Of a stretch of DNA of 64,000 nt, positions 9,101 to 63,498 are shown piece by piece. The position numbers and the translations under genes were made by a program. Positions within the stretch are counted from its first letter, which is position 1, and every line of letters starts with the position of its first letter. The stretch comes from a virus. The notes beneath the pieces are model-generated. The model was given only the letters and a program-made list of their open reading frames with translations, was not told where the DNA came from and did no database searches. Where the stretch lies: IMG/VR virus record IMGVR_UViG_3300025057_000003, positions 51,585 through 115,584 of that record, one strand, 5' to 3'.

Positions 9101-12100
9101 GATCAAGCTTTAGACGCATATGTAAAAAATATAACTGCAGAGTTTGATAGAATACAAAGAGAGTTAAATCCATATACAAAAACTAAAAATTTAAAACCTG
9201 GATATAATGCAGATAAGAAAGGTCAAAAACCAGATCTAAATGGAAGAGCTTACAGATTTGCTAATAATAAACTTATATTAACTCCATCCAATTCAATAAC
9301 TCCTGATGTAGAATCTGGAAAACTTTTAGATAGTAGCTCTACAATAACTAGAATTAGAGAAGGAAGTCAAAAACTATTTATAAAGACAGATGCTGCAGCA
9401 GTAGCAATGGGATTCTTTGCGGAAGGAGAAAGTACTAATTTAGAAATAGGAATAGGTGAGGAAACTAAAGTTGGAAAAGGTAAAAGAAGAGTATTTAAAC
9501 AAGCTGCTAAAGACAAATCTACATTCCATAGAGTTAAGTTAATTGGTAAGAAATCTGTAAATAACTTAACATTATTCAATGTTGAGGATATGTTAGGAGA
9601 GGCTATATCAGATAAAAAGACAAACACCCATACTAAAGAAGTAGAGATTGGAAATCAAACAAGATGGGTTGAGTCTGATGCAATGAAGGCATTTTTATTG
9701 GGTGAAAAGGAGTTCTTTGTTTATGAAGTAATTGAAAATGACTTAACTAATCTAACAGACGAAGAGCTTGACATACTAGAGAAAGAAGCTGTAGATCAAG
9801 AAGATTATGCTAAAGCTAAAGAAATAGCAGATCTAAGATCATATGGTGAAATAAATTATGCATCTGAATTAGAAAGAATTTTAAAAGAACATGCTAAAGA
9901 ACAAGAAGGAAAATCTGAAGAAGATTATGAAACACTAACTTTAGAAGAAGCTCTTTCTAAAATTCCTAGCGATAAAGACATTAATCTAGATTCTTTAAAA
10001 GCTTTTATTACTGAAAGAATAGATCAAGAGTTTAAGCAATTTAATAAAGACATAAATAATGAATTCTATAGAGTAGAGGAAGATGGTAGTGTATACTTAG
10101 ATTTACCTAGATTCATATCAACGGGTCTTAAGAGAAATGAGAACTCAACAGGTAGTGAAGCTGCATTTGAAAATGCAAATCAAAAGTTAAACCTTACAAA
10201 TAATAGAACTCATAATTTAAAGCAAATCTTTATTAATGACTGGATTAATACTACAGCAATAAATGATCTTTTGCTTGGTGATCAAGCAGTGTCCCTTAAA
10301 GATGGGGTTGATGCAGTTAAAAGAGCCAAAATGCAAAATGCTGCATACTATAGTGCAGCAAGCAGAATATCTTCTAAAAAACATAATGTATTGAATCCTC
10401 TGCAAAAGATATCAATGTTTGCTGTGACAGATCCAATTGCGTCTTCAATACATACTAAAGAAAATATAGAGCAAGCAGATGCACAAAACTGGATGACTGT
10501 AAAAGCATTTAGATATATGTGGTTTGGCTTTGGAAAACTTACAGAAACTCAATCTAAATTGCTAGATAAAATAGAAGCTGGAGCTGAGATTTCAGTAGAG
10601 GAAATATTTGGAGCAGCCGGTGCCGTTAAAAAGCAAGAGATGTTAAACTCTAAAAAACTTGTTTATGGTGATGGTAAAGTGTTTGACAAATTCTCGGTAA
10701 TACCTCTTAGTAAGGCAATGACATCTATGAAGGACAAAAACGGAAACTGGATTGCAAAACCAGGACGTGAGATACTTCATAATATGAGGGTAAAGATGGA
10801 GCAGTATGAACAAGATCAGCTTGATCAAGGTATTGATACTGTTGCAATGGTGGCCCCTTTATCTGCTTTAAAAATGATGAAGGAGAATGTTTCATTAATT
10901 GATGATTTAGTAAATCCTAATGAAACTATTATTCAATCTCAAGGTAAAGGTACTGATGCTCAGTATATGGGTAGAAGCCTTTCATATGAGGCAGTTAAGT
11001 CAGGTAAACCCAATAGACTTACTACGGATAATGTAATGGATCTTGATGCTAATTATATGGGTCTGCAAGTATTAAACCCTTCTAATAAAGAAGAGATTAT
11101 AGATCCTACTCAGATTAAAACATTATTAACTGGTGAGCAAGATGACAAGGCCACAGTAAGAATTGATGGCGAGGTAGTTTCAATAGGAGCTTTAAGAAAA
11201 AGATACAATGAATTAGTTAGTGCAAGGCTAACTCAAAAGTATATAGATAAAAGAAATCTTATATTTGATATTGATCCTGAATATGCAATGGATCAGTTAC
11301 ATAAAAGTATTGAAGCAAAAAAGATAACACCTGATTTATATTCTTTCTTGAATTATGCTCAGACATCATTGCTAGCAAGTCAGTCATCATCACAATTATT
11401 AGAGTTCTTTTCATTTGATGAGGACGGCAATCCTACTTTTGATTTTGTCCAAGATTCACCAATGGTTGAAGCTAAGTTTAAGCAGTTATTCTTAAGCTAT
11501 TTTAGTAAAGGAGTAATGGCTGAAAAAATACCAGGTACCGGTGCGGCATTGCTTTCTGATTATGGTTTTTCTCAATATAGAAAGGTTTATAGTGTAGATG
11601 AAAATAACTATATAGATAGACAAGAAATAATAAGAACAAATGATTTTGCTCAGAACTATTCTATGAGTGATGTGCAAATGGAAGGTAATGATGTTCTTGA
11701 TTTATCCAATGATGATAAGTTTGATGTATTAGCTCAAAGAGTTAATAAACTTAAGAAGGGTGAGTTTATTATAGTAAAAGATAGACTTAGACCTAATATG
11801 AAAGAATATAACATTAAAGGTGAATATACTGGAGTTAAATATTCCGAGGCTTTAATGCCTGCACATTCAAAAGAAGTTTATGAAAATTTAGATCTTTTAA
11901 AACCTGATGCAGCAATTCCAGATTCAGTTGGTAAGATGTTTGGTATACGTATTCCATCCCAAGATAATCACTCTACTATAAATGTTAAGGTTGTAGATTT
12001 TTTACCTGTGTTTAATGGATCAACGATAGTTGCATCAAGAGAACTTGTTGAGGTATCAGGAGCTGACTTTGATATTGATAAGTTATATCTTCAAATGAAA

Positions 12101-34341: not shown

Positions 34342-36342
34342 TTAAAATAATTCTAATTGATTAATACTAGTATGTAATATTGAATTTATTTCAGATTCAA
34401 TAGCTTTAATATAATAAGCAAGATCAATATTATAATCTTCCCACTTGGGTTCTAACTTTATTTCATTGAATAAGGTTTGCATCCATCTTCCGGCTTCATT
34501 TTGTATTTCTCTTCCATCTTTATTATTAATCCTTAGTATTTTAACGCTTTTTTCACCATGTTTGGATATGAAGTATCTATTGATCTTTTGAAGATCTTCT
34601 TCTTTATATATACCGTTATTTGATGATATAGCTACTTGCTTCCAATCACCTTTTGATTTTTTACCTATACAGTAGTCAAGTATATTTTTATTCTTTGCAA
34701 GATAGTCTTCTGGTAAGACATCCTTAACAAAGTAATTATAAATAGCCTTTTTAACTACTAGTTTAGATTTATTCTTATGGAGTTGAAGTTCATGAAAATT
34801 AAATCTACCTTTTAACTTTACAGGAGCATACATAAAATCAGAACCTTTTACTTTAAATAAGTAATGTGGATTCTCTTCTTTTGCTTTTCTCCAGTTAGTT
34901 ATATCAACAGATTTAAAATCATTTACTGCAATGTAATTATTAACATCACCAAGAACAAGTCTTTGATATGTGTCATGCTCAAGATTTAGTTGAGTTAGAT
35001 CTTCCCACTGTTTGCAGATCTCTAAATATAGATCTTTTTTGTTTCTTGGAATTCTAATCTCTACACCATCTGTATTTTGCAATAAGCCAAATGCTTCTGG
35101 TATTGCGTCCAGTATCATATCATATAACATCATCAGACTAAGCTGACCATTGAGTGTTATACGCATGCATAGTTCAGGATCATAAAAGAAGCTATTCTCT
35201 TCATTGCTCAAACCAAATGTACTATTAAGTATAATTTTATATACATAGTTCATTGGATTAGACTTTGGGATTTTAACTCTCTCATTAAAGAACCATTCAT
35301 ACTGATCACAGAACTCTTCTTTTGGAAAGTGTGCGGGTGACCACTTATTCCGAATACATAGATTTGGATAGAAAGATGTAACATCCGAAGACATAATAAT
35401 ATGATCATCATCTGATTTATATACACCACTTTTTCTTGCACCGTGAATGCCACCTAATGCAAACGTTGTGTGTACACCTTTGTGTTCCATCTCATATCTA
35501 AACTGACCCTTAAGCCTCATTGCATCTAGCTCAAGAGATTTAAATCTTTCAAGAGCAGCTTTAAATTCAGGAGCATTAAACTTAATGTAAGGTAATATAA
35601 GATCTTTAACCTTAATTACATTTCTATAAGTCTTCATGTTCTTGATTTCCCCCGGGTTCATATCCAACTTCTTACCTAAATAATAAGCAAATAGTTCTTT
35701 AGCAATCTTTGGTTCAGAAGCACTAAATAGATTTATACCATATTGAGATGTAAGTTCTTTGCGTAACTTAATCTCTGATTTAGATCTATTAAATATTTCT
35801 TTAGTAGATGCAACATCATTAACACAATACTTAACTATTGTATCTAGCTCCTCTTGGGTTTTGATTTCTGTAGTATGATGTATAGGCATATCTAAAAGAT
35901 TTTCCCAATCCATACTATACTGAATCCATTTAAGGCTAGAACGTTTAGCTGGGTTGTCCCAGTGGTGTAACTTAAATAAATCAATCTGACCTATTTGTAT
36001 ATGCCACGGTGCAAATACTCCCCATTCTTTTTTATTTTGCCTAGCTATTGTGTCTTGAGCAAAGTCATAAATAATACCAGCTATGTCTTCAGCGCACATG
36101 CTATGCCACATATGGTAATTATTTAGTATATACTGAGTCACTTGAGCATCAAAAGCTAAACCATTATATGATATATGCCATTGCTTCTCATCTCTATTTG
36201 TATGTAAAAATTCTATGAAATCATCAAAATCATTTTGTAACTCATGTACTATAAATACTCTTTCCTCAGAGGTTTTATAATGCTGAAATACTGCTACAAA
36301 ACAATTTGATAATGTTTCATAATCCATTATGTAGTGATCCAT
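34342..36342 (-). CDS. polB: Family B DNA polymerase (crAss-type)
   Basis: Exonuclease motifs DYET, YNGLAFD and YCVND; polymerase motifs SDVTSFYP, KIILNSTFG and QNTDG. Confidence 0.92.
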   Translation of the reverse strand: MDHYIMDYETLSNCFVAVFQHYKTSEERVFIVHELQNDFDDFIEFLHTNRDEKQWHISYNGLAFDAQVTQYILNNYHMWHSMCAEDIAGIIYDFAQDTIARQNKKEWGVFAPWHIQIGQIDLFKLHHWDNPAKRSSLKWIQYSMDWENLLDMPIHHTTEIKTQEELDTIVKYCVNDVASTKEIFNRSKSEIKLRKELTSQYGINLFSASEPKIAKELFAYYLGKKLDMNPGEIKNMKTYRNVIKVKDLILPYIKFNAPEFKAALERFKSLELDAMRLKGQFRYEMEHKGVHTTFALGGIHGARKSGVYKSDDDHIIMSSDVTSFYPNLCIRNKWSPAHFPKEEFCDQYEWFFNERVKIPKSNPMNYVYKIILNSTFGLSNEENSFFYDPELCMRITLNGQLSLMMLYDMILDAIPEAFGLLQNTDGVEIRIPRNKKDLYLEICKQWEDLTQLNLEHDTYQRLVLGDVNNYIAVNDFKSVDITNWRKAKEENPHYLFKVKGSDFMYAPVKLKGRFNFHELQLHKNKSKLVVKKAIYNYFVKDVLPEDYLAKNKNILDYCIGKKSKGDWKQVAISSNNGIYKEEDLQKINRYFISKHGEKSVKILRINNKDGREIQNEAGRWMQTLFNEIKLEPKWEDYNIDLAYYIKAIESEINSILHTSINQLELF

Positions 36343-38403: not shown

Positions 38404-39237
38404 TTAAAATATATATCTAATTGTATCAATATTAAAATAGGCTGAATATAAAAACTTCCAATGATCAAGATATGCTTCTTTATCTTTAAGCGGATATCTC
38501 ATTACACCAGATTCATTCTTTACTTCACATGAAGCAGCCATTAACTTCTGTGCTTGTTCTGATGCTTTAGCCATCTGATTAGCGTGATTAGTTAATGCAA
38601 TAACTTCACACTTATTCTCACCGGCTATAGCTCTAACCATTTTAAATAGATCAGAATAACGTTCTGACCATTTATAATCAAATACCACAGGACTGTAGTT
38701 TATATGAACTTCCCATCCTAATTTCTTAAGACGGTTAATATCATGTATCCTATCTTCTATCTTTTGCATTTTAGGTTCAAGAACATCAGCAAAAATCTGA
38801 GGCATTAGACTAACTCTAACTCTAGGCTTCTTATTAAAATGATTAACATCTAAATTTAACAAACCTGGATACTTAGTAGCCATGGTTGTATTAAGTCTTG
38901 GATGATCATCATATCTTTTAAGATAGTCTATCAATGGTTCTGGTGTATGTTTTTGCATCAATACTAAATCAGTATTACATGCAATATCCACCATAGTATA
39001 TATAGGGTCTTGTTGATCAGGTACCTTAGTAAAGCCCTCTTCCCATTTAACAACCGAATTAAATATGTCATCTACATTTGTATTTACAAAGACTCTTGTA
39101 CCGTTATACCGGGACATGTAACAATAAGTATTTACACAGCCACCAAAGCATCCGTAGATTAAATTGGGAGCTATGCAATTAGCACTATTGTTATTGTTCT
39201 TTGTTGTTAGAGTCTTTGTCTTCTGTTCTTTGATCAT
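38404..39237 (-). CDS. Spore photoproduct lyase-like radical SAM protein
   Basis: IAPNLIYGCFGGCVNTYCYM cysteine cluster, DIACNTD, ATKY, RVRVSLMP, GWEVHINYSPV and C-terminal MRYP...IRYIF, all typical of SplB-like proteins. Confidence 0.85.
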   Translation of the reverse strand: MIKEQKTKTLTTKNNNNSANCIAPNLIYGCFGGCVNTYCYMSRYNGTRVFVNTNVDDIFNSVVKWEEGFTKVPDQQDPIYTMVDIACNTDLVLMQKHTPEPLIDYLKRYDDHPRLNTTMATKYPGLLNLDVNHFNKKPRVRVSLMPQIFADVLEPKMQKIEDRIHDINRLKKLGWEVHINYSPVVFDYKWSERYSDLFKMVRAIAGENKCEVIALTNHANQMAKASEQAQKLMAASCEVKNESGVMRYPLKDKEAYLDHWKFLYSAYFNIDTIRYIF

Positions 39238-39396: not shown

Positions 39397-39431
39397 AAAA
39401 AAAGGGGTGGTGTGCAGACGTTCTGCACACC
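39397..39431 (-). terminator. Intrinsic terminator ending the MoxR-vWA operon
   Basis: GGTGTGCAGA-acg-TCTGCACACC stem, then ACCCC and a 7-U tract. Confidence 0.7.
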
Positions 39432-39455
39432 ATTTCTAATCAATTATGGCTACCC

Positions 39456-40607
39456 CTAAAACGGTAAGTCTTCAGTATATTCAGACTTCAGTTTTAAATC
39501 TTTAGGTCTTATATCAAATACAGACTCAGAGTTTGTAAGGCCTACATGACTCAATATAGTCTTGCACATTTTATTAGATATTGCACCTACAGCAAAAGGA
39601 GTTAAACAACCTTTTACATGCAAAGCTCTAACTAACATATTAAAACCATATCCATTATTACCCTCAACATAAGGAATATCTACTAATTGTTTCCTTAATG
39701 ATTTTACATTTACACTATTCCAGTTTCTTGCATTACCAAGTAACTCTTTATAGAATGCAAATATTAAAGCCAATTTATCAAATGATTTTTCAATATTGCA
39801 ATTAGCCATCATTTCTAAAGCTAAAGCTATACTATCTCTATCACCAGATTTAATCATCTGAGATATAGATTTGCATTCTTCTGGCGTAAGAACAACCGAA
39901 TCTTCATTACAATAGTTTATAAGATCAGTATCTTTAACTAACTTATCAGGGTTATTTATTAAATAAGTTAAATTTTCAGAGTGTGTAACTAACCAAAATT
40001 CATGACCTTTATCTCTAAGTTTATCATGTCTATCACTAAAAGCATCTCTAACAGTATGATTAAAGCCATAAGGTATTCTATTATCAATAAAAATAAAACC
40101 ATCTTTATTTATAACATGATCAACAAAGTGACAGATTTTATCATATATAGTTTCAGAAACATAAGCTTTTATTTTAGGTAGATATACTTCTTTTATATCT
40201 GATCCTGAGTAAAAGCTATGCCAGTTATATTCAGTTAAACTTTCAAAATATTTATCTGATGTAATAATATAATCTGCTTTATCCATATCTCTTACAACTT
40301 TTATATTATACTTATCTTTTAAAAGTTGCAATTTAACTTGCGGCAATGCTAATTTTGGAGTTCTATAGAAACTTGTATCTTGTAAATTGTTTTTATCAAA
40401 CTTAGGTATACTAAATGCTGGATTAGATCTTCTACCGTTAGAAATAGAACTTAGACCCCCAATATATGAGTAGTCTTCATTAGATCCTACATGATAATTT
40501 TTATGTTTATTTACAAAGGTAATGGCATCTTCATCAACTAAAACAGATTTTACCCACGATGAATCAGTTGGGTAAATGCTTAATGTATATAATTTTTCTA
40601 TTTTCAT
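39456..40607 (-). CDS. BRCT-like domain protein, paralog 1 (MoxR operon)
   Basis: LPQVKLQLLKDKYNIKVVRDMDKADYII segment plus helical motif ISQMIKSGDRDSIALALEMMANCN. Confidence 0.6.
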   Translation of the reverse strand: MKIEKLYTLSIYPTDSSWVKSVLVDEDAITFVNKHKNYHVGSNEDYSYIGGLSSISNGRRSNPAFSIPKFDKNNLQDTSFYRTPKLALPQVKLQLLKDKYNIKVVRDMDKADYIITSDKYFESLTEYNWHSFYSGSDIKEVYLPKIKAYVSETIYDKICHFVDHVINKDGFIFIDNRIPYGFNHTVRDAFSDRHDKLRDKGHEFWLVTHSENLTYLINNPDKLVKDTDLINYCNEDSVVLTPEECKSISQMIKSGDRDSIALALEMMANCNIEKSFDKLALIFAFYKELLGNARNWNSVNVKSLRKQLVDIPYVEGNNGYGFNMLVRALHVKGCLTPFAVGAISNKMCKTILSHVGLTNSESVFDIRPKDLKLKSEYTEDLPF

Positions 40608-41620
40608 TTTAAGTACTTTTTATATTCTGGTTTTACACTCACTTTAAACGTATAAAGATTGCGGTTATGAATTGAAATATCTTTTCTAACTATTTTCTCT
40701 AAATATTTAAATGATTCAGTGTCTAATCTATTTTCTACTTCCAACTGTAGAATCATATCTTCAGCTGAATTATGATATAATTTACTTAGATCTGATTGTT
40801 CCTCCCAAAACTGTACATCTTTATCTCTACTAAACTTATGTATATAAGAATATATATTTTGAGCCAATTGCCACATTAAATGTGGTTTCTTTGTATAGTT
40901 TATTGTAGGAAGAATCTTAGCTGCTACAGCTATGTTCTCTTCATCATATGAATTTACCCACTGCGTTATTTCATTAAGAAGGTCTTCAGTTAGATCTATT
41001 AGATTTGCAGAAGCATGTAACAATGTTTCACCACCGATTACTTTTAATTCACCTATATCTATAAGATATGCTATGTTTAAAGCTAAGGCTGAAATACCCC
41101 ACTCATCAATGAGAGTTGTTTGTCCAGAACAGTTATATGAACTTATTCTTCCTTCAAGTTTCTCATCATAAATTACAGCTTTATCATGATTATCTATCAT
41201 ATGATGACCTCCGGTAAATGCTTCATAATTCCAAAGCCTGTACATCATTACAGTAGATTGAATTTTTTCTCCATGTTCAAATCTTTGAAAAAATTCATCA
41301 TGTGTAATAATTACATCTGCTTTTTCATAATCATTAGTAATTGTTAAACCTTTTTCTTTAGCTACAGCTTTTAATCTATCCTGTGTTATTGGAGATCTTG
41401 GTAGTATAAAAGCCCTCTTATAGTTATTAAGAGCTGTTGGTTTTATATTCTGTATAGAAAGCATATTTTTAATGTTCTCATATCTAGTTTCATCTTGTGT
41501 TATAAGCACATCAGACACTTCAAAATCAGATGAAAGAACCCCATAAAGGGGCTCTTTATCCAATTTAAAATGATCTAGTGCATCTTGATTGTATTCTTGA
41601 TATACACTCTTATTTGCCAT
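40604..41620 (-). CDS. BRCT-like domain protein, paralog 2 (MoxR operon)
   Basis: ITQDRLKAVAKEKGLTITNDYEKADVII segment plus ITQWVNSYDEENIAVAAKILPTIN. Confidence 0.6.
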   Translation of the reverse strand: MANKSVYQEYNQDALDHFKLDKEPLYGVLSSDFEVSDVLITQDETRYENIKNMLSIQNIKPTALNNYKRAFILPRSPITQDRLKAVAKEKGLTITNDYEKADVIITHDEFFQRFEHGEKIQSTVMMYRLWNYEAFTGGHHMIDNHDKAVIYDEKLEGRISSYNCSGQTTLIDEWGISALALNIAYLIDIGELKVIGGETLLHASANLIDLTEDLLNEITQWVNSYDEENIAVAAKILPTINYTKKPHLMWQLAQNIYSYIHKFSRDKDVQFWEEQSDLSKLYHNSAEDMILQLEVENRLDTESFKYLEKIVRKDISIHNRNLYTFKVSVKPEYKKYLK

Positions 41621-41621
41621 A

Positions 41622-42896
41622 TTATTTTACAGTCATTTTAATTATTTCAGGCTTCATCATAAGCTTATTAAACTTCTGCTTGTTCCCGTTAAAAATAGTT
41701 CTTACAACTAAGTACTTAAGATCATTAGTGAAATACTCTTTTGTGCAAAGAGTTTCCAATCTATCAGTAATCTTTTGACTAATTGTATTATCCTTAGAAT
41801 ATACTACTGCAAAGTTTGCAAGTCTGGTTGCTAGGGTAGATGCAATATCTGCACGATAGTTATCATCTTTACCAATACAACCGGTTAACTCACCAAGAAT
41901 ATATTGCTCATTGTCATGAGTCAATAGATCTTTTGGTGTAACTAGTTTATCTAACTTATTATTAATAAATACAGTAAACATAGAAGCAAACTCTTCACCT
42001 ACTGATCCTTCACCAATCATTTGAATATATGAAAGGTTAGCCTCAAAGCTTTCAAAGCTAGAGATAGAATTAAAGAAAGTGGTGATTGCACGAGCATTTG
42101 TCTCTTGAGTCACAAGCTCAGGGTGTAGTAGCATGAAGTTAATACAACGTGTATCAATTCCTTCTTCTTCCGCCCAACGAGCCCATACGTTTACATCAAA
42201 CTGCAAGTTAGCAGTAATATAACGTGTTTTCTGTGCAGCATCAATAGAGTTAACCATATAGTCTCCGTTATCTGGATTTGCGGTTAACACAATATGCCAG
42301 TCTTGCGGTAGTGACCACGAGATGTACGTCTGACGATCAATCAGTTCCATTACGGCCTGAATAAATCTAACGTCTGCACGGTTCCAGTCATCAAGAAGTA
42401 GGATACCACCTTTCTTCTTGTCTGAGATCCACTCAGGTGCAGCATATGACATACGGTTCTTACCTGTCATCTTGTAACCATTGCTTAAATAGTCACTTAC
42501 TGCGAGCTCACTTACCCACTGCCCAATCTTCTTTGTAACAGAAGCATTATTGGCTAGCTGGGCAACATCTTTAGATGCGGCAGTCTTTGCACCGTAAGCT
42601 ACAGCGTCTTTGTTGTTATTAATAGATACAACTTTCTCTTTATACATTTGGAACTCTCTAACTGGGAAACCCACGAGATCACCTAGCTCCTCAATCTGAG
42701 CTAAGTTTAGTTTTACAAAATCAAGGTTATGTTCCTCAGCAATTTGTTTTACTGTGGATGTTTTACCAATACCTGATTCACCTAGAACTTCTATAGCAAC
42801 AGGAAGTTTTCCCTGTCCCTGTAGAAATCTATTATTGTTTATAATGTGGCCCATAAAGCCTCTTAAGTCATCAATGTTTAAATTTACTTGTGCCAT
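41622..42896 (-). CDS. MoxR-like AAA+ ATPase
   Basis: Walker A GESGIGKT, GDLVGFP, Walker B LLLDDWNRA, VLTANP and DAAQKTR. Confidence 0.9.
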   Translation of the reverse strand: MAQVNLNIDDLRGFMGHIINNNRFLQGQGKLPVAIEVLGESGIGKTSTVKQIAEEHNLDFVKLNLAQIEELGDLVGFPVREFQMYKEKVVSINNNKDAVAYGAKTAASKDVAQLANNASVTKKIGQWVSELAVSDYLSNGYKMTGKNRMSYAAPEWISDKKKGGILLLDDWNRADVRFIQAVMELIDRQTYISWSLPQDWHIVLTANPDNGDYMVNSIDAAQKTRYITANLQFDVNVWARWAEEEGIDTRCINFMLLHPELVTQETNARAITTFFNSISSFESFEANLSYIQMIGEGSVGEEFASMFTVFINNKLDKLVTPKDLLTHDNEQYILGELTGCIGKDDNYRADIASTLATRLANFAVVYSKDNTISQKITDRLETLCTKEYFTNDLKYLVVRTIFNGNKQKFNKLMMKPEIIKMTVK

Positions 42897-42902
42897 AATT
42901 GT

Positions 42903-44057
42903 TTAATTTAATTGTATTTTTTTTCCGGGTAATTCTTCGTTTATTCTGCAATGACTGCTATGTACCCACAAAGCATTCTTTGGACAGTTCTCTGGGGCCC
43001 ATGCCTCACCATCCGTAAAATATATAAGAGCTGTATAACGCCCGTGTTCATTGTAGTGATCTATGACAGGTTGAAATGATGTACCACCTCTACCATGTAT
43101 TTGCCAATCACGCTTAGGATTAAAAGGTTCAATTGAATTGATACTTGTATCACACTGCACTACTGTAATCTGATGACCAGTCTTGTGCATATGTGTTAAC
43201 TCAGACCAAAATTCCTCAAGTTCCTTTTGACTTACAGATCCTGAAGTATCAACACCTACGCAGATGTGATTTTTGAATTTAATCTTTAGTCCTGGATTTT
43301 CAGAATACCTTTTATTATACTTTCTTCTTAGCTTCTTTGTATAAACTATAGATGAATTACCAACAAACCTTCTAAGGTAACCACGCCAATCAAACTTGGG
43401 TGGTTCTACATGACGGAGTCTTTTAATTAAGTCCGCCAACTCACCTGGAATATTACCGCATCTCTTCTCAGTCATCTCAGCATTTTCTTTGAGCTGATGC
43501 TCAACCTGCTTTTGGATTAACTTCTTTTCTGCTTCAGATAAATCTTCAATCTCTTCCCATGTGGCATGATCATATGGAGTACTTCCATCCATTTGATCCA
43601 TTAATTCATCAAGAGATGGAGATGAGCCATCTTCACGAGCTTGTTGTAATAACTCATAATATGTTTTAGTACCAGCTCTTGCAGGAAGATCTAACTCTGG
43701 AAATGAATCCATTGTTATACCTCCATCAGGAAGATAATCTTGATCAATGTATTGATTGATCTCCAAATCCGCAGCTATATTAAATAACTTCTTATCTGCA
43801 TACTGATCTCTGACCAACAAATGCCCAAATGATATATGAAGAAGTTCATGTTTTAATAAACCAATCCTGTGTTTATCATTCAATCCTGTAAAAAATTCAG
43901 GGTTAATTGCAAGCTGTACACCAATGCCGTGTTTACTAACACCAGCAGTAGGAAGCTTATCTGTATAAACCTTATTAAGGCCAACTAAAAAGAGCCCATA
44001 AAAGGGCTCTGTAAAAATTAGGGTTTTACTTGCTTTTGAAACTAAATTTGCTACCAT
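42903..44057 (-). CDS. Metallopeptidase-vWA protein (DUF2201-like)
   Basis: HELLH zincin motif and NIAADLEIN; MIDAS elements DTSGS, GGTSF and FTDG. Confidence 0.9.
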   Translation of the reverse strand: MVANLVSKASKTLIFTEPFYGLFLVGLNKVYTDKLPTAGVSKHGIGVQLAINPEFFTGLNDKHRIGLLKHELLHISFGHLLVRDQYADKKLFNIAADLEINQYIDQDYLPDGGITMDSFPELDLPARAGTKTYYELLQQAREDGSSPSLDELMDQMDGSTPYDHATWEEIEDLSEAEKKLIQKQVEHQLKENAEMTEKRCGNIPGELADLIKRLRHVEPPKFDWRGYLRRFVGNSSIVYTKKLRRKYNKRYSENPGLKIKFKNHICVGVDTSGSVSQKELEEFWSELTHMHKTGHQITVVQCDTSINSIEPFNPKRDWQIHGRGGTSFQPVIDHYNEHGRYTALIYFTDGEAWAPENCPKNALWVHSSHCRINEELPGKKIQLN

Positions 44058-44428
44058 TTTACTTTGAATTTACCATCTATGAATTTATATTCTTCTGTTA
44101 AAGCATGAAAATGCTCAACAACCAATGATTCATAAATGAGTTTTATATTTTCTATATTATCACTTTTTAATTTTGATATGCTGTTATACAGCTCTTGCAT
44201 TGTGAGATCTTGATAATTCCACATGCTCTGACCAAGCATCTCTATAAGATGACGTCTGCCACCATATGAAGTTTTTTTAAGAATAAGCCTTATAATCTCT
44301 TCCTCAGGGTTTAAGTTTTTAATTGTCTCCAAGGCCATCTCAACATCTTCAGTATTTGAAGAGTTTAACATCTTAGATAAATTATTAAATACCTCTAAAT
44401 CTATTTTTAATATTTCTTTTGTATCCAT
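44051..44428 (-). CDS. Small helical protein sharing the SxDxE-LA motif with the BRCT-like paralogs
   Basis: Likely start at ATG 44428 (TAATG coupling); LSKMLNSSNTEDVEMALETIKNLN. Confidence 0.7.
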   Translation of the reverse strand: MDTKEILKIDLEVFNNLSKMLNSSNTEDVEMALETIKNLNPEEEIIRLILKKTSYGGRRHLIEMLGQSMWNYQDLTMQELYNSISKLKSDNIENIKLIYESLVVEHFHALTEEYKFIDGKFKVKW

Positions 44429-44775
44429 TAGTCCTCTATTTTTAAGGTTTTTCTCATCCAATCTGGTTTTTCCTTTCTGTTCATATGAACAATCCATTCC
44501 TTTGCAGATGGGATGTAATTATTGCAATCTTCTTTGACATGTTGTTCACCAACATATCTTGTATACACGGTCTTACCGTCTGAATTAATAAATGATTTAC
44601 CAAAGATTATTTCACATTCAAAAATACCTTCACTGTGATGACGATATAATCTGTGCATAGAATGACCTATCCACTTTTTAGTTTCATCAAACCACTCATG
44701 TATTTTAATGTAATCTTCAGGAATGCCACCCCATTTTCTCACTGAGGATTTAGCATGTAAAGAAGGATGAGCCAT
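44428..44775 (-). CDS. His-rich conserved protein (DUF6915-like)
   Basis: MAHPSLHAKSSVRKWGG...IHEWFDETK...HRLYRHHSEG...EQHVKED. Confidence 0.75.
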   Translation of the reverse strand: MAHPSLHAKSSVRKWGGIPEDYIKIHEWFDETKKWIGHSMHRLYRHHSEGIFECEIIFGKSFINSDGKTVYTRYVGEQHVKEDCNNYIPSAKEWIVHMNRKEKPDWMRKTLKIED

Positions 44776-45131
44776 TAATCATCAAATATTAAAGCATCCC
44801 ATGAGTATGGATCTACAGTTCTTTGATTATAATCAGCCTCAATGGATTTATCTTTTACATTAATTGTTACACTGCCATATCCACCGTCATTATTTACCCA
44901 ATCTCCACCATAGCTATTAACACAATCTTCAATTAAAGAATATATATAATCTTCTAAGTTTTGATCTGCTCTATAGTCTATTAGATTATCATCAATATCA
45001 TAGAAAGTATAATCATGAACTTCTCCAGAATCACCTTGACCATCAAAGTCAGCTATTACTTTTTCTATTCCGTGATCCATTAATCTGCTCAGTAGTGGTA
45101 GCAGTTCCATTGGTTCTTTTTGTTTTGCCAT
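44775..45131 (-). CDS. Acidic conserved protein (DUF6878-like)
   Basis: FDGQGDSGEV...DWVNNDGGYG. Confidence 0.7.
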   Translation of the reverse strand: MAKQKEPMELLPLLSRLMDHGIEKVIADFDGQGDSGEVHDYTFYDIDDNLIDYRADQNLEDYIYSLIEDCVNSYGGDWVNNDGGYGSVTINVKDKSIEADYNQRTVDPYSWDALIFDD

Positions 45132-45498
45132 AATTTATAATTTCAATTATTACTCCTGGCTTTTCTTTATCATATTGATATGGTTTGAATATGGGAATGA
45201 TAAATTCCATATTATCATCTTCTATCCAACCATGTGTTACCATATCATCTTGCACTGTTTGTGCAGGATTTATGTAATCAAACTTATGTTTAGTACCACG
45301 AATAAAAGTGAAAGCAATTGTGACCGGTAGTTTATGCTTCTTTAGTTCCTTCTGAAACTGAGATGCATATTTTTGATAGAAAGGTTTTGTGTCCTTTCTA
45401 TATTTCATAACTGTTTTACTAGATATGAAGTACTTGCCTGTCCATCTTCTTCCATTTTTACTACTAGGTACATTACCTGGTATAAAATATTTAGCCAT
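45049..45498 (-). CDS. RusA-like Holliday junction resolvase
   Basis: GNVPSSKN...DYINPAQTVQDDMVTHGWIEDDN. Confidence 0.8.
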   Translation of the reverse strand: MAKYFIPGNVPSSKNGRRWTGKYFISSKTVMKYRKDTKPFYQKYASQFQKELKKHKLPVTIAFTFIRGTKHKFDYINPAQTVQDDMVTHGWIEDDNMEFIIPIFKPYQYDKEKPGVIIEIINYGKTKRTNGTATTTEQINGSRNRKSNS

Positions 45499-45499
45499 A

Positions 45500-46477
45500 T
45501 TATTTATGTATAGTCTCCTTAAGGAGAGGTTTTAAATTAGCATGAACTTCATCAAAGCCATACTCTTTTACTGCATCTGATATATCTTTTGCTAGATCTA
45601 AAGCACAACCATTTATATCATAGTTCTTTTTATAAACAGCAATTGCTTTTTTACCGGCATCATCATTATCAAATAAAGTTATTACTTTTTTATATTTACT
45701 CTTTAGATTCTCAATTATATAAGGCTTAATCAAAGTATTCTCACTGTCTGGAGCAATGACCTCAAGATTATAACCAAATCCGGCTAGAGACATCACATCT
45801 TTTAATGAAGAAGCAATAACCAAATAAGGCTGCTTATACTCCAACTGATCTAAACCTTGAATATAAGATTCAATTTTGTAAAACTTAAACCCATCACGAA
45901 GAGGCTGATAGATTTTAAATATCTGACCATGTTTATTGTAATAACCATACATGTTCTTACCACGTATAGTCTTTTTTTCCACGGTCCCATTATCAGACTT
46001 TATTAAATTATAGTAATCAATAGGTCTAACATTATATTTAGATAGCATAGAGCTACCAATCCTGTATTGTAACCAGTAAACCGCATCATCCTGGTTCCAG
46101 GACCGTGTCTTTACTAGTTCAACTTCCCATTTAGGTTGAGGTTTAAATTCTATCTTAACTGCTCCATTTTGCGCTACAAATTTATTATAGTCATTGATCA
46201 TCTTTTCAACTGCAGAAGCATAATTTAAATCAAATATATCTTGTATAAGATTAATCTTGTTACCACCTTTACCGGTTGAAAAGTCTTTATACATATAGCA
46301 ACGTTTCATTTTATCTACATATATGCATAAACTAGCTGTACGTTCTGAAGGATTCCAAATAGATTTTATTTTTATATCCTGTCCACTAAGATGTTCATTG
46401 AGTTTTAAATAATACTGAAAAACCCAATAGCTAGGAACAGATGATTCGTTTGCAACTAAGTTTTTTGTACTAATCAT
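45500..46477 (-). CDS. DNA primase (TOPRIM, crAss-type)
   Basis: ERTASL, YKDFSTG, SSLKDVM, APDSE, FDNDDAG and KDISD motifs. Confidence 0.85.
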   Translation of the reverse strand: MISTKNLVANESSVPSYWVFQYYLKLNEHLSGQDIKIKSIWNPSERTASLCIYVDKMKRCYMYKDFSTGKGGNKINLIQDIFDLNYASAVEKMINDYNKFVAQNGAVKIEFKPQPKWEVELVKTRSWNQDDAVYWLQYRIGSSMLSKYNVRPIDYYNLIKSDNGTVEKKTIRGKNMYGYYNKHGQIFKIYQPLRDGFKFYKIESYIQGLDQLEYKQPYLVIASSLKDVMSLAGFGYNLEVIAPDSENTLIKPYIIENLKSKYKKVITLFDNDDAGKKAIAVYKKNYDINGCALDLAKDISDAVKEYGFDEVHANLKPLLKETIHK

Positions 46478-46488
46478 ATTTCAAATTT

Positions 46489-46520
46489 AAAAAAAAATTG
46501 CCGGCACAAGACCGGCAATT
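46489..46520 (-). terminator. Intrinsic terminator
   Basis: ATTGCCGG-N7-CCGGCAAT followed by a U-tract that runs into a TAAATTTG (-7-like) box before the primase gene. Confidence 0.8.
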
Positions 46521-46532
46521 TCAAACCCTAAA

Positions 46533-62693: not shown

Positions 62694-62900
62694 TCAGTTT
62701 GATCCTGAAGACTCTTTATGTCTTCTATCATTACCTCTATAGGTATGATCAGAAACTGTTAGCATTGGCATAAACATACATCCCCAGAAACAATAGCATA
62801 ATAAAAATGCTAGGATGTTTAAGTCACCCATACTTCCCAGTATGGCTGTGAACGTTCCTAATAACAGGACCGCCCACAAATACATTGCTAAATTTTTCAT
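62694..62900 (-). CDS. Two-TM membrane protein
   Basis: Hydrophobic; ATGA-coupled. Confidence 0.6.
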   Translation of the reverse strand: MKNLAMYLWAVLLLGTFTAILGSMGDLNILAFLLCYCFWGCMFMPMLTVSDHTYRGNDRRHKESSGSN

Positions 62901-63157
62901 AATGTTTCTTTTACAGTGTTAGGAAATAATTGCTCATCAACAGATCTATGATTAACAAAATCAATTTGTTTAATCATATATTTGACAGTATCATATCTTT
63001 CTTCAAGACTATCTGCCCCAAAACCTTCTTTGTTATCTGCAATTTCAATAGCAAGTTTAGTTTTTTCTTCTAATAGCATATTCTTTATACTATCTCTTTC
63101 TTCTTTTGGTAGATGGTTTATCATCTTTCTTAATACGTTTAATTCTGACGTGTCCAT
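62897..63157 (-). CDS. Hypothetical protein
   Basis: 86-aa helical ORF. Confidence 0.65.
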   Translation of the reverse strand: MDTSELNVLRKMINHLPKEERDSIKNMLLEEKTKLAIEIADNKEGFGADSLEERYDTVKYMIKQIDFVNHRSVDEQLFPNTVKETL

Positions 63158-63162
63158 AATTT

Positions 63163-63498
63163 TTATTTTTTGTGGTTAATAATTTTTAATTCAGATCTAT
63201 AAAATTCATTTAACATTTGTTGTGGTGCTTCATGAAACCATTTTAAATAATCAAAAAAGTATTTACTATTATAATGAGATCCATCCATAACGTCTCTTTC
63301 TTCAAGTTCACCGTCTTTGATCAAGTAAATAAATAAGGCTATTCCAATAGGTTTAATATGAAATCCATCATTGCATGTGTATTCATAGTCTGGTATGACA
63401 TGTAATTCAAAATTACTATCAGCTTTGCTGGTAATAATAGTAGGCTTTTCTATCTCCATGTCAAATAGATAGATAGCATCTTCAAATAAGTTTCTCAT
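63163..63498 (-). CDS. Hypothetical protein
   Basis: 111-aa ORF. Confidence 0.65.
   Translation of the reverse strand: MRNLFEDAIYLFDMEIEKPTIITSKADSNFELHVIPDYEYTCNDGFHIKPIGIALFIYLIKDGELEERDVMDGSHYNSKYFFDYLKWFHEAPQQMLNEFYRSELKIINHKK

What the first reader, a model, noticed from the sequence alone, without database searches (positions are those of the whole stretch)
39456..45131. MoxR AAA+ / vWA-metallopeptidase operon with three proteins sharing a putative docking helix
Seen: a translationally coupled run ending in a terminator: DUF6878-like, His-rich DUF6915-like, 125-aa protein, HExxH-vWA, MoxR ATPase, then two BRCT-like paralogs. Three members share one motif: LSKMLNSSNTEDVEMALETIKNLN (125 aa), ITQWVNSYDEENIAVAAKILPTIN (338 aa) and ISQMIKSGDRDSIALALEMMANCN (383 aa). 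The ATPase has Walker B LLLDD (not DE) and a low-complexity insert after GDLVGFP. Known: MoxR-vWA pairs are chaperone/remodelling machines, and some are cores of conflict systems. Inference: a phage-encoded multi-adaptor remodelling/proteolysis system in which the shared helix docks interchangeable substrate adaptors onto the vWA-MoxR machine to disable host complexes or defences.
Basis: partly seen in the sequence, partly recalled or inferred. Interest (0 to 1): 0.78.

Follow-up and report, generated by a model that had tools for sequence, protein, structure and literature searches.

The report
Phage MoxR-vWA engine, BRCT/HEAT partners
An uncultured marine phage carries a strongly conserved ATP-driven motor and a protease-adaptor protein, flanked by fast-evolving partner proteins that share one small helical module; the same module marks the partner proteins of the closest bacterial versions of this machine, which gives a first handle on what this widespread but unexplained gene pair acts on.

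Summary
All seven genes exist, are coupled and end at a terminator-like hairpin. Pfam confirms DUF6878, DUF6915 and DUF2201_N+DUF2201, with HExxH and the DxSxS MIDAS motif invariant. The ATPase is AAA_5/MoxR-like, with an invariant Walker B DD and a ~65-residue insertion.

The shared motif is real homology. It is not a lone helix but the first helix-turn-helix of a small HEAT/ARM-like domain. That domain follows a BRCT-like domain in the 338- and 383-aa paralogues and stands alone in the 125-aa protein.

New here: the closest relatives of the vWA and ATPase genes are in Bacteroidota, not in cultured phages. There the pair sits next to leucine-rich-repeat proteins carrying BRCT plus the same motif. 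A model built only from those bacterial proteins picks the three phage proteins as its top three hits among 735 ORFs.

In the phage lineage the ATPase and vWA are more conserved than the DNA polymerase, and the partners are the fastest-evolving genes.

The module is therefore the constant part of interchangeable partners. Docking onto the engine, proteolysis and the biological target remain inferred.

The scan has already reported this cassette on several related marine crAss-like phage contigs. I rate it a new variant of a known kind.

The parts
44775..45131 (-). DUF6878 protein (118 aa), an optional accessory gene
   Evidence: Pfam PF21798 6.6e-15; found in 20 of 80 related loci
44428..44775 (-). 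DUF6915 protein (115 aa, His-rich), an optional accessory gene
   Evidence: Pfam PF21866 8.7e-40, PHROG 8143; found in 20 of 80 related loci
44051..44428 (-). p125: small all-helical protein consisting of the motif (HEAT-like) domain alone. The 148-aa ORF from 44497 is an over-extension.
   Evidence: Most homologues are 125 aa. AF2 pLDDT 86.6, seven helices. Residues 4-75 resemble TOG/HEAT, CpcE/F and VHS, Z 5-6. hhalign to the p383 family 88%, E 3e-6. A motif-bearing small ORF lies just upstream of vWA in 38 of 80 loci.
44309..44380 (-). Motif copy in p125 (LSKMLNSSNTEDVEMALETIKNLN)
42903..44057 (-). Zincin (HExxH) plus vWA protein of DUF2201 type (384 aa)
   Evidence: Pfam DUF2201_N and DUF2201 above cut-off, PHROG 1314 7e-66. 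HELLH and DTSGS are invariant in 52 relatives.
41622..42896 (-). AAA_5/MoxR-like ATPase (424 aa)
   Evidence: PHROG 1297 2.7e-34. The family profile matches midasin AAA modules in the PDB. Bacterial orthologues (HMM E 1e-65 to 1e-78) pass the Pfam AAA_5 cut-off.
42387..42404 (-). Walker B ILLLDD (Asp-Asp instead of Asp-Glu)
   Evidence: Invariant in 52/52 relatives. Also DD in the Bacteroidota orthologues; DE in an Arcobacter plasmid homologue.
42453..42656 (-). ~65-residue insertion in the ATPase, between GDLVGFP and the strand before Walker B. The first half is variable and low-complexity; the second half is conserved.
   Evidence: Phage HMM positions 81-148 have no counterpart in the bacterial orthologues. 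Conservation pattern from A2. Its position at the helix-2 insert is my inference.
40604..41620 (-). p338: BRCT-like domain followed by the motif domain; paralogue of p383
   Evidence: BLASTP to p383 8e-7; full-length hhalign; present in 80/80 related loci
41285..41422 (-). BRCT-like core of p338
   Evidence: Aligns with the p383 BRCT-like block; most conserved region of the family, 0.67 pairwise identity
40898..40969 (-). Motif copy in p338 (ITQWVNSYDEENIAVAAKILPTIN)
39456..40607 (-). p383: variable N-terminal beta region, BRCT-like domain split by an insertion, HEAT/ARM-like helical domain
   Evidence: AF2 pLDDT 86. VIA: residues 71-237 vs BRCT domains, Z 5.2-5.9; residues 238-315 vs ARM/HEAT, Z 6-6.8. 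No Pfam hit. 1,003 cluster representatives in metagenomes.
40236..40397 (-). BRCT-like core of p383
39795..39866 (-). Motif copy in p383 (ISQMIKSGDRDSIALALEMMANCN)
   Evidence: Most conserved block of the family; helices 242-253 and 257-268 in the model
39408..39432 (-). Terminator-like hairpin closing the unit
   Evidence: 11-bp stem with 6 GC pairs, then CCCCTTTTTT
45049..46477 (-). Upstream genes of the same probable transcription unit: DnaG-like primase (45500-46477) and RusA-like resolvase (45049-45498)
   Evidence: Pfam Toprim_2 and CHC2 zinc finger; PHROG 1682 RusA-like; no terminator-like site between them and the cassette
46494..46522 (-). Terminator-like hairpin upstream of the primase gene (probable 5' boundary of the unit)
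   Evidence: 12-bp stem followed by a T-run

Best explanation
This is the phage version of a self-contained three-part machine that also exists in Bacteroidota.

Parts:
1. An AAA_5/MoxR-like ATPase with Walker B DD.
2. A zincin-vWA protein (DUF2201 type, intact HExxH and MIDAS).
3. One to three partner proteins, each built from a constant BRCT-like plus HEAT-like module joined to a variable part.

In bacteria the variable part is a leucine-rich-repeat array. In the phage it is a fast-evolving N-terminal/insert region (p338, p383), or nothing (p125).

The shared motif is the first helix-turn-helix of the HEAT-like module.

Most likely mechanism (inferred):
- The constant module couples each partner to the vWA-ATPase core.
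- The variable part selects what is acted on.
- The ATPase remodels the bound complex, and the zincin may cut it.

The cassette lies in one probable transcription unit with primase and RusA, next to a PD-(D/E)XK nuclease and the DNA polymerase, and BRCT domains are typical of replication and repair proteins. My best guess for its role is therefore remodelling of protein complexes during phage DNA replication or host takeover in mid-infection.

Shown: the gene content, the homology, the link between motif and engine, and the conservation pattern. Inferred: docking, cleavage and the target.
For: Genes and domains.

Motif homology among the three proteins.

Folds: the p383 model has a BRCT-like part (Z 5.2-5.9) and an ARM/HEAT-like part (Z 6-6.8). 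The p125 model is HEAT/TOG-like (Z 5-6).

Specificity: among 8,704 ORFs of 80 related loci, every motif hit (E<=0.01) is p383, p338 or a small ORF directly upstream of vWA.

Bacterial link:
- The best vWA match outside the lineage is 37% identical, on Cytophagales plasmids.
- Phage HMMs match Bacteroidota vWA proteins at 1e-69 to 1e-89 and ATPases at 1e-65 to 1e-78, against 1e-27 to 1e-49 for the vWA of cultured phages and other plasmids.
- The order vWA-ATPase-partner is the same in four of those loci; in G140 the partners lie upstream of ATPase-vWA.
- The partners there are LRR proteins with a Pfam BRCT hit, followed ~45 residues later by the same motif, e.g. ...NLRDMLHS.NPESEALALEM.KNGGLP.
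- The bacterial-only module HMM ranks p125, p383 and p338 as numbers 1-3 of 735 phage ORFs.

Co-occurrence in 301 Bacteroidia genomes: DUF2201 in 5, the module clearly in 2, and in both the module lies within about 5 kb of the pair. A further pair has an LRR neighbour with a motif-like N-terminus (hhalign E 1e-3). Flanking genes in bacteria are unrelated metabolic genes, so the trio is its own unit.

No motif near 8 more distant pairs.

Conservation, median identity to the window over 15 relatives: ATPase 79%, vWA 74%, DNA polymerase 66%, primase 58%, p338 46%, p383 31%. Within p383 the BRCT core (0.51) and motif (0.54) are conserved, while the N-terminus (0.18) and insert (0.22) are variable.
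Against: - No physical or predicted interaction was tested; no multimer tool was available.
- The motif does not occur in vWA or the ATPase, so any docking would be heterotypic and has no sequence signature.
- One module-bearing LRR protein in genome G001 lies far from any DUF2201 gene, so the module can exist away from the pair.
- Fold matches are middling (Z<8) and could reflect common helical packing.
- All 80 phage loci belong to one lineage, so their synteny is one observation, not 80.
- The bacterial sample is small and two loci were found through the module itself.
- Walker B DD might mean slow or no ATP hydrolysis.
- The conserved acidic residue of the motif may simply cap a helix, as in other HEAT-like repeats.
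- Nothing shows a link to replication beyond gene position.
Confidence: 0.5

Rival explanations
1. The partners are clients, not adaptors. The ATPase-vWA-zincin pair folds, assembles or cleaves p125, p338 and p383 themselves, and the shared module is the handle by which the engine grips its own substrates. This would resemble midasin, which grips Rsa4 and Ytm1 through a shared domain.
For: The motif is exclusive to proteins encoded next to the engine. The ATPase profile matches midasin AAA modules best in the PDB. The midasin/MIDAS docking on a domain shared by Ytm1 and Rsa4 is established knowledge, recalled and not tested here. HExxH is invariant.
Against: Fast-evolving variable regions, and LRR arrays in the bacterial partners, look like target-recognition surfaces rather than passive cargo. 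No cleavage-site signature was found.
Confidence: 0.2
2. The motif has no coupling role. It is only a structural HEAT-like repeat inherited by paralogues. p338 and p383 are BRCT-type replication or repair factors that work independently of the ATPase-vWA pair and lie beside it because the whole replication block is syntenic.
For: The whole block from the AAA_24 ATPase to the DNA polymerase is collinear in all 80 relatives. BRCT-like folds are typical of replication and repair proteins. One bacterial module protein lies away from the pair.
Against: In Bacteroidota, module-bearing proteins sit next to the orthologous pair in non-replication contexts. Motif proteins lie on both sides of the pair in the phage. 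The small motif-only protein has no BRCT.
Confidence: 0.12
3. The cassette is a virion-assembly chaperone and maturation protease, as proposed for the MoxR plus zincin-vWA pair of group 2.2 jumbo phages and shown for the MoxR-vWA pair of Acidianus two-tailed virus.
For: Proposal in Iyer et al. 2021 (PMC7824862). The engine is very strongly conserved.
Against: The cassette is in the replication block, probably co-transcribed with primase and RusA, far from the structural genes. N4 genes 24 and 25 are middle genes (PMC4193335). The bacterial orthologues have no virion to assemble.
Confidence: 0.08
4. The cassette is a counter-defence or host-takeover weapon. The partners aim the protease engine at host defence or housekeeping complexes.
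For: The partners evolve fast. The bacterial relatives carry LRR arrays, which are typical of recognition proteins. The closest relatives are in the probable host phylum, which suggests capture from hosts.
Against: No PADLOC match. The bacterial loci are not in obvious defence islands. The engine is more conserved than the DNA polymerase, which fits a core function better than an arms-race gene.
Confidence: 0.1

Closest known systems
Phage N4 genes 24 and 25 (unknown/ATPase and vWFA protein), core genes of N4-like phages (Schitoviridae); PHROG 1297 and 1314
   Same: Same two families. The ATPase matches PHROG 1297 (2.7e-34) and the vWA protein matches PHROG 1314 (7e-66). tblastn finds the vWA protein in 476 phage records, many of them N4-like, at 24-31% identity. 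They are core genes and middle genes in N4, with unknown function (PMC4193335).
   Different: No BRCT/HEAT-like partner or motif was found next to the pair in the sampled cultured phages (Vibrio N4-like, Moorella, Alteromonas). The window's ATPase is very divergent from theirs, with only two weak tblastn hits.
MoxR AAA+ plus metallopeptidase-vWA pair of group 2.2 jumbo phages (Iyer et al. 2021, PMC7824862)
   Same: Same architecture: a MoxR-type ATPase with a vWA co-chaperone fused to an N-terminal zincin.
   Different: That paper describes no third component and proposes virion assembly. Here the pair has dedicated partners and lies among replication genes.
vWA-MoxR ternary conflict systems (Kaur, Burroughs, Iyer, Aravind 2020, PMC7159879)
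   Same: Same logic: a MoxR-vWA core plus a third component that carries variable modules. Short shared adaptor domains link the components.
   Different: The third components there are VMAP, iSTAND, FtsH or a beta-propeller. BRCT does not occur in that paper (0 occurrences). The vWA there lacks the DUF2201 zincin. The window's proteins match no Pfam or PADLOC model of those components.
Bacteroidota vWA / AAA_5 / LRR-BRCT triads (Fulvitalea axinellae pFA5, Chondrinema litorale plasmid, Cytophagales MAGs); annotated only as VWA-like, AAA family ATPase and hypothetical
   Same: These are the closest relatives of both engine proteins. They share Walker B DD, and four of the loci share the gene order. 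Their partners carry BRCT plus the same helix-turn-helix motif.
   Different: The bacterial partners are 475-1,156 aa with LRR arrays (one also has WGR and TPR). The phage partners have no LRR, their BRCT is split by a ~100-residue insertion, and the phage ATPase carries an extra ~65-residue insertion.
Midasin/Rea1, whose MIDAS domain docks on a domain shared by Ytm1 and Rsa4 (recalled, not tested)
   Same: An AAA_5-type ring works with a MIDAS/vWA domain that grips different proteins through one shared small domain. Midasin is the best PDB sequence match of the ATPase profile.
   Different: In midasin the shared domain is ubiquitin-like, not BRCT/HEAT-like. It is a single giant eukaryotic polypeptide without a protease.

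Membership tests
DUF2201-type zincin-vWA proteins (Pfam PF13203 + PF09967; N4 gp25-like) | Both Pfam domains above the gathering score | tested here: met
   68.4 bits (cut-off 23.2) and 63.8 bits (cut-off 26.4)
DUF2201-type zincin-vWA proteins (Pfam PF13203 + PF09967; N4 gp25-like) | HExxH zinc motif and DxSxS MIDAS motif present | tested here: met
   HELLH and DTSGS, invariant in 52 relatives
MoxR/AAA_5 (helix-2-insert clade of AAA+) | Pfam AAA_5 or AAA_3 above the gathering score | tested here: inconclusive
   The window protein scores 18.6 bits against a cut-off of 22. Its bacterial orthologues (HMM E 1e-65 to 1e-78) score 37-45 bits. The family profile matches midasin AAA modules.
MoxR/AAA_5 (helix-2-insert clade of AAA+) | Walker A GxxGxGK[ST] and canonical Walker B hhhhDE | tested here: not met
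   Walker A GESGIGKTS is invariant. Walker B is LLLDD, invariant in 52/52 relatives and also DD in the Bacteroidota orthologues. The Glu is replaced by Asp.
MoxR/AAA_5 (helix-2-insert clade of AAA+) | Adjacent vWA co-chaperone gene | tested here: met
   A 6-nt gap separates the vWA stop from the ATPase start. The two genes are adjacent in every related locus that holds both (76 of 80; the others are cut at a contig end).
BRCT domain | Pfam BRCT/PTCB-BRCT hit | tested here: not met
   No hit for p338 or p383. The bacterial counterparts reach the cut-off (21.3 and 23.5 bits).
BRCT domain | BRCT fold (beta-alpha-beta-beta-alpha-beta-alpha) | tested here: inconclusive
   p383 model residues 71-237 align to several BRCT domains (7scy_K, 6qsz_A, 9dev_A, 3qvg_B, 4bmd_A) with Z 5.2-5.9, 76-84 residues aligned and rmsd 3.1-3.6, across a ~100-residue insertion.
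HEAT/ARM-like helical repeats | Stacked helix-turn-helix repeats | tested here: inconclusive
   p383 residues 238-315, Z 6.0-6.8, against AP-complex, beta-catenin and COPI repeats. p125 residues 4-75, Z 5-6, against TOG, CpcE/F and VHS. Foldseek gives nothing significant. No Pfam HEAT hit.
vWA-MoxR ternary conflict systems (VMAP / iSTAND / FtsH / beta-propeller) | One of the four defining third components | tested here: not met
   No Pfam or PADLOC match in any of the seven proteins. The paper does not mention BRCT.
N4 gp24/gp25-type phage pair | Membership of PHROG 1297 (ATPase) and PHROG 1314 (vWA) | tested here: met
   2.7e-34 and 7e-66

The most novel reading that the evidence does not exclude
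The BRCT-like/HEAT-like module is a dedicated docking handle. Through it, one AAA_5 plus zincin-vWA engine can be armed with interchangeable recognition proteins, much as midasin grips its clients through a shared domain. On this reading Bacteroidota use the handle on LRR-based sensors. A large lineage of marine crAss-like phages captured the whole system and replaced the LRRs with its own fast-evolving heads, in order to remodel or cleave host or replication complexes. This would also point to the long-unknown job of the N4 gp24/gp25 pair.
Probability: 0.2. Interest if true: 0.8.

Novelty: new variant of a known kind. Interest (0 to 1): 0.58.

Why it matters
The ATPase plus zincin-vWA pair is a core gene pair of N4-like phages, occurs in jumbo phages and many plasmids, and has no known function. 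Here it comes with a dedicated, previously unnamed partner family: about 1,000 cluster representatives in metagenomes and no Pfam model. The constant module of that family recurs on the partners of the closest bacterial systems. This yields concrete, testable hypotheses about what binds what and which part is variable. It also offers a tractable bacterial model, the operons on the Fulvitalea and Chondrinema plasmids, for a machine that in this phage lineage is more conserved than the DNA polymerase.

Tried and rejected
- megablast of the region and tblastn of p383 against cultured phages: no match.
- Foldseek against the PDB for both models: nothing with E<=0.001.
- ESM Atlas for p383: only unnamed clusters at scores of 0.76-0.77, which is uninformative.
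- The listing of cluster members: no names.
- The genes next to the pair in Moorella phage MTATph1 and Alteromonas phage AD45-P4 are unrelated to p383. The 330-aa gene between the ATPase and vWA on an Arcobacter plasmid is also unrelated.
- The genome-contig scan with the bacterial module found only 2 loci, because the chosen patterns were narrow. The 'longer' protein search found only 3 proteins.
- Homotypic docking was rejected: no motif copy in vWA or the ATPase.
- Membership of known defence systems was rejected: PADLOC shows only P-loop-level hits.
- The idea that Walker B DD is a phage peculiarity was rejected: the Bacteroidota orthologues share it.
- The idea that p125, DUF6878 and DUF6915 are all core members was rejected. 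DUF6878 and DUF6915 occur in 20 of 80 relatives. A small motif ORF upstream of vWA is detectable in 38 of 80.
- I did not test the 'crAss-like' label given by earlier notes.

Full report
**Observation.**
- Successive genes overlap by 1-7 nt or are separated by 1-6 nt.
- The only strong terminator-like hairpins in the neighbourhood are at 39408-39432, 24 nt after the last stop, and at 46494-46522, upstream of a DnaG-like primase. The likely transcription unit is therefore primase, RusA-like resolvase, DUF6878, DUF6915, p125, zincin-vWA, ATPase, p338, p383.
- Pfam confirms DUF6878, DUF6915 and DUF2201_N plus DUF2201.
- The ATPase gets only sub-threshold AAA/AAA_5/AAA_3 hits but matches PHROG 1297. 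The vWA protein matches PHROG 1314.
- The 148-aa ORF should be read as 125 aa. That ATG overlaps the DUF6915 stop by one base, and most homologues are 125 aa.

**The engine.**
- In 52 non-identical relatives the Walker A (GESGIGKTS), Walker B (LLLDD), HExxH (HELLH) and MIDAS (DTSGS) motifs are invariant.
- A profile of the ATPase family matches the AAA modules of midasin best among solved structures.
- Compared with bacterial orthologues, the phage ATPase carries a ~65-residue insertion right after GDLVGFP. Its first half is variable and its second half conserved. I infer that it sits at the helix-2 insert that defines the MoxR clade.
- The DD Walker B is not a phage oddity, because the Bacteroidota orthologues also have it. 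A more distant Arcobacter plasmid homologue has DE.

**The motif.**
- p338 and p383 are paralogues (BLASTP 8e-7 over 195 residues; full-length profile alignment).
- p125 matches the helical part of p383 (profile-profile probability 88%, E 3e-6, 97 columns) and of p338 (E 8e-4).
- A motif HMM built from p383 relatives alone ranks p125 and p338 first among all 735 six-frame ORFs of the 115.6-kb phage genome.
- The AlphaFold model of p383 (pLDDT 86) has four parts: a variable beta-rich N-terminus; a BRCT-like domain (residues 71-237, Z 5.2-5.9 to several BRCT structures) interrupted by about 100 residues; a helical domain whose first part (238-315) resembles ARM/HEAT repeats (Z 6-6.8); and further C-terminal helices (316-383) with no fold match.
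- The motif is helices 242-253 and 257-268, that is, a helix-turn-helix and not a single helix.
- The p125 model (pLDDT 86.6) is all-helical, and its first four helices resemble TOG/HEAT, CpcE/F and VHS repeats (Z 5-6).
- These Z scores are middling, so the fold labels are tentative. The homology among the three proteins does not depend on them.

**Distribution in phages.**
- The p383 family has no Pfam model and no relative in cultured phages. It is nevertheless large in metagenomes: 1,003 cluster representatives at E<=1e-3 and 180 at E<=1e-30.
- Eighty viral contigs fetched with the family profile all show the same order: AAA_24 ATPase, a 221-aa protein, primase, RusA, [optional genes], vWA, ATPase, p338, p383, [optional genes], PD-(D/E)XK nuclease, two small proteins, DNA polymerase.
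- These contigs are one lineage, so the synteny counts as one observation.
- DUF6878 and DUF6915 are present in only 20 of the 80.
- With the motif HMM, every hit at E<=0.01 among 8,704 ORFs of these loci is p383, p338 or a small ORF immediately upstream of vWA. That small ORF is seen in 38 loci, most of which were not in the training set. There were no hits elsewhere.

**Bacterial counterparts (the main new result).**
- The best matches to the window's vWA protein outside the lineage are not phages (at most 31.5% identity). They are two Cytophagales plasmids at 37%.
- On both plasmids the order is vWA, AAA_5 ATPase, then one or two large hypothetical proteins.
- Those proteins are LRR proteins. 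One has a Pfam BRCT hit at the cut-off.
- By eye and by HMM, all three carry a BRCT-like stretch followed about 45 residues later by a segment such as ...IENLRDMLHSCNPESEALALEMFKNGGLP. This aligns with the phage motif.
- A genome scan with this bacterial module found two more genomes, each with the pair about 3 kb upstream.
- In a sample of 301 Bacteroidia genomes:
  - DUF2201 occurs in five and the module clearly in two, both among those five and both within about 5 kb of the pair. One of the two was the genome used as the centre of the sample.
  - One partner there has the architecture WGR-TPR-LRR-BRCT-LRR.
  - Two of the remaining three DUF2201 loci have the full pair with an LRR protein nearby. 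One of these has a motif-like N-terminus, MLARIKDLFAS...LALTLIQAHGLPE (hhalign E 1e-3); the other gives only a doubtful match (E 0.1).
  - The fifth locus shows only a more distant vWA match and no ATPase.
  - One extra module-bearing LRR protein lies far from any pair.
- Reciprocally, an HMM built only from three bacterial sequences ranks p125 (1.7e-4), p383 (1.1e-3) and p338 (0.05) as the top three of 735 phage ORFs, with the next hit at E=1.
- Eight more distant pairs (three cultured phages and plasmids of Arcobacter, Priestia, Pontibacillus, Synechocystis and Simplicispira) have no motif protein nearby.
- The motif-bearing partner therefore goes with one sub-family of the pair: the one with Walker B DD that includes this phage lineage and Bacteroidota.

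**Evolutionary rates.** Median identity to the window over 15 diverse relatives:

| Protein | Median identity |
|---|---|
| ATPase | 79% |
| vWA | 74% |
| DNA polymerase | 66% |
| Primase | 58% |
| p338 | 46% |
| p383 | 31% |

- Within the p383 family the BRCT-like core and the motif are the best-conserved segments (0.51 and 0.54 mean pairwise identity). The N-terminus and the insertion are the most variable (0.18 and 0.22).
- This is the pattern expected of a constrained engine served by partners that have a constant coupling part and a variable head.

**Interpretation.**
- I conclude with fair confidence that this is a three-component system: AAA_5 ATPase, zincin-vWA, and BRCT/HEAT-like partners. 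It is shared between a large marine phage lineage and Bacteroidota.
- The shared motif is the hallmark of the constant module of the partners.
- It is inference, not demonstration, that the module docks on the engine, that the ATPase remodels, that the zincin cleaves, and that the targets are replication-related or host proteins.
- The motif is absent from vWA and the ATPase, so the contact would be heterotypic.
- The rivals are: partners as clients; no coupling at all; virion assembly as proposed for jumbo phages (PMC7824862); and counter-defence. They are listed with their tests in the Rival explanations section.
- PADLOC and NCBIfam give no further identity.

**Literature.**
- N4 genes 24 and 25 are core genes of N4-like phages, are middle genes, and have no assigned function beyond 'vWFA domain' (PMC4193335).
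- Iyer et al. 2021 noted the MoxR plus metallopeptidase-vWA pair in jumbo phages and suggested virion assembly.
- Kaur et al. 2020 defined vWA-MoxR ternary systems whose third components are VMAP, iSTAND, FtsH or a beta-propeller. BRCT is not mentioned in that paper.
- No paper in the searchable library combines MoxR with BRCT, or crAss-like with MoxR.

**Earlier notes of this scan.**
- The same cassette has been followed up on several related phage contigs. BRCT/LRV or LRR partners beside MoxR-DUF2201 pairs have been noted in Campylobacterota, Clostridia and a flavobacterium.
- Those notes led me to look in bacteria. The Bacteroidota evidence above is my own test, on different genomes.
- The label 'crAss-like' comes from those notes and was not tested here. 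A Bacteroidota host would fit both that label and the origin of the closest engine homologues.

**Verdict.** This is a new variant of a known kind, of moderate to good interest. The finding is not new to this scan.

Noticed in passing
window 39408-39432 and 46494-46522 (- strand): Two strong terminator-like hairpins bracket a nine-gene unit that runs from the DnaG-like primase to p383. The MoxR-vWA cassette is therefore probably co-transcribed with primase and RusA.
   Followed up: partly
window 38404-39237; related loci L014, L019, L029, L056, L070, L080: The spore-photoproduct-lyase-like gene is mobile within the lineage. Here it lies directly after the cassette, but in many relatives it lies downstream of the DNA polymerase or is missing from the fetched stretch.
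   Followed up: no
L001:4413-4688 (Vibrio phage 1.025.O, N4-like): A 91-aa ORF two genes upstream of the zincin-vWA gene starts with ...LENLKPMLLSMDSDIVSE, which resembles the motif. The HMM E-value is only 0.07-0.1. If real, N4-like phages would also have a motif-bearing small partner.
   Followed up: partly
window 62900-63175 (- strand): A 92-aa ORF gives several weak repeated hits to the p383 motif HMM (whole-protein E 0.024). It may be another HEAT-like repeat protein or chance.
   Followed up: no
L100 (G140:C28:92000-110000), ORF 7320-10790: A bacterial partner of the pair has the architecture WGR-TPR-LRR-BRCT-motif-LRR (1,156 aa). WGR and BRCT together hint at a nucleic-acid or DNA-damage link for the bacterial system.
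   Followed up: no
L101 (G001:C22), ORF 9618-11468 (- strand): A third module-bearing LRR protein of the same genome lies far from the single DUF2201/AAA_5 pair, among secreted-protein genes. It may be a partner that acts in trans, or an independent use of the module.
   Followed up: partly
L091 (PBYL01000393.1, labelled Thalassovita sp. MAG): A contig binned as an alphaproteobacterium carries a trio whose gene order and gene lengths match the Chondrinema (Cytophagales) plasmid trio. It may be a mis-binned contig or a recent transfer.
   Followed up: no
window 41622-44057 compared with 34342-36342: Within the lineage the ATPase (79%) and vWA (74%) are more conserved than the DNA polymerase (66%) and primase (58%).
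   Followed up: yes
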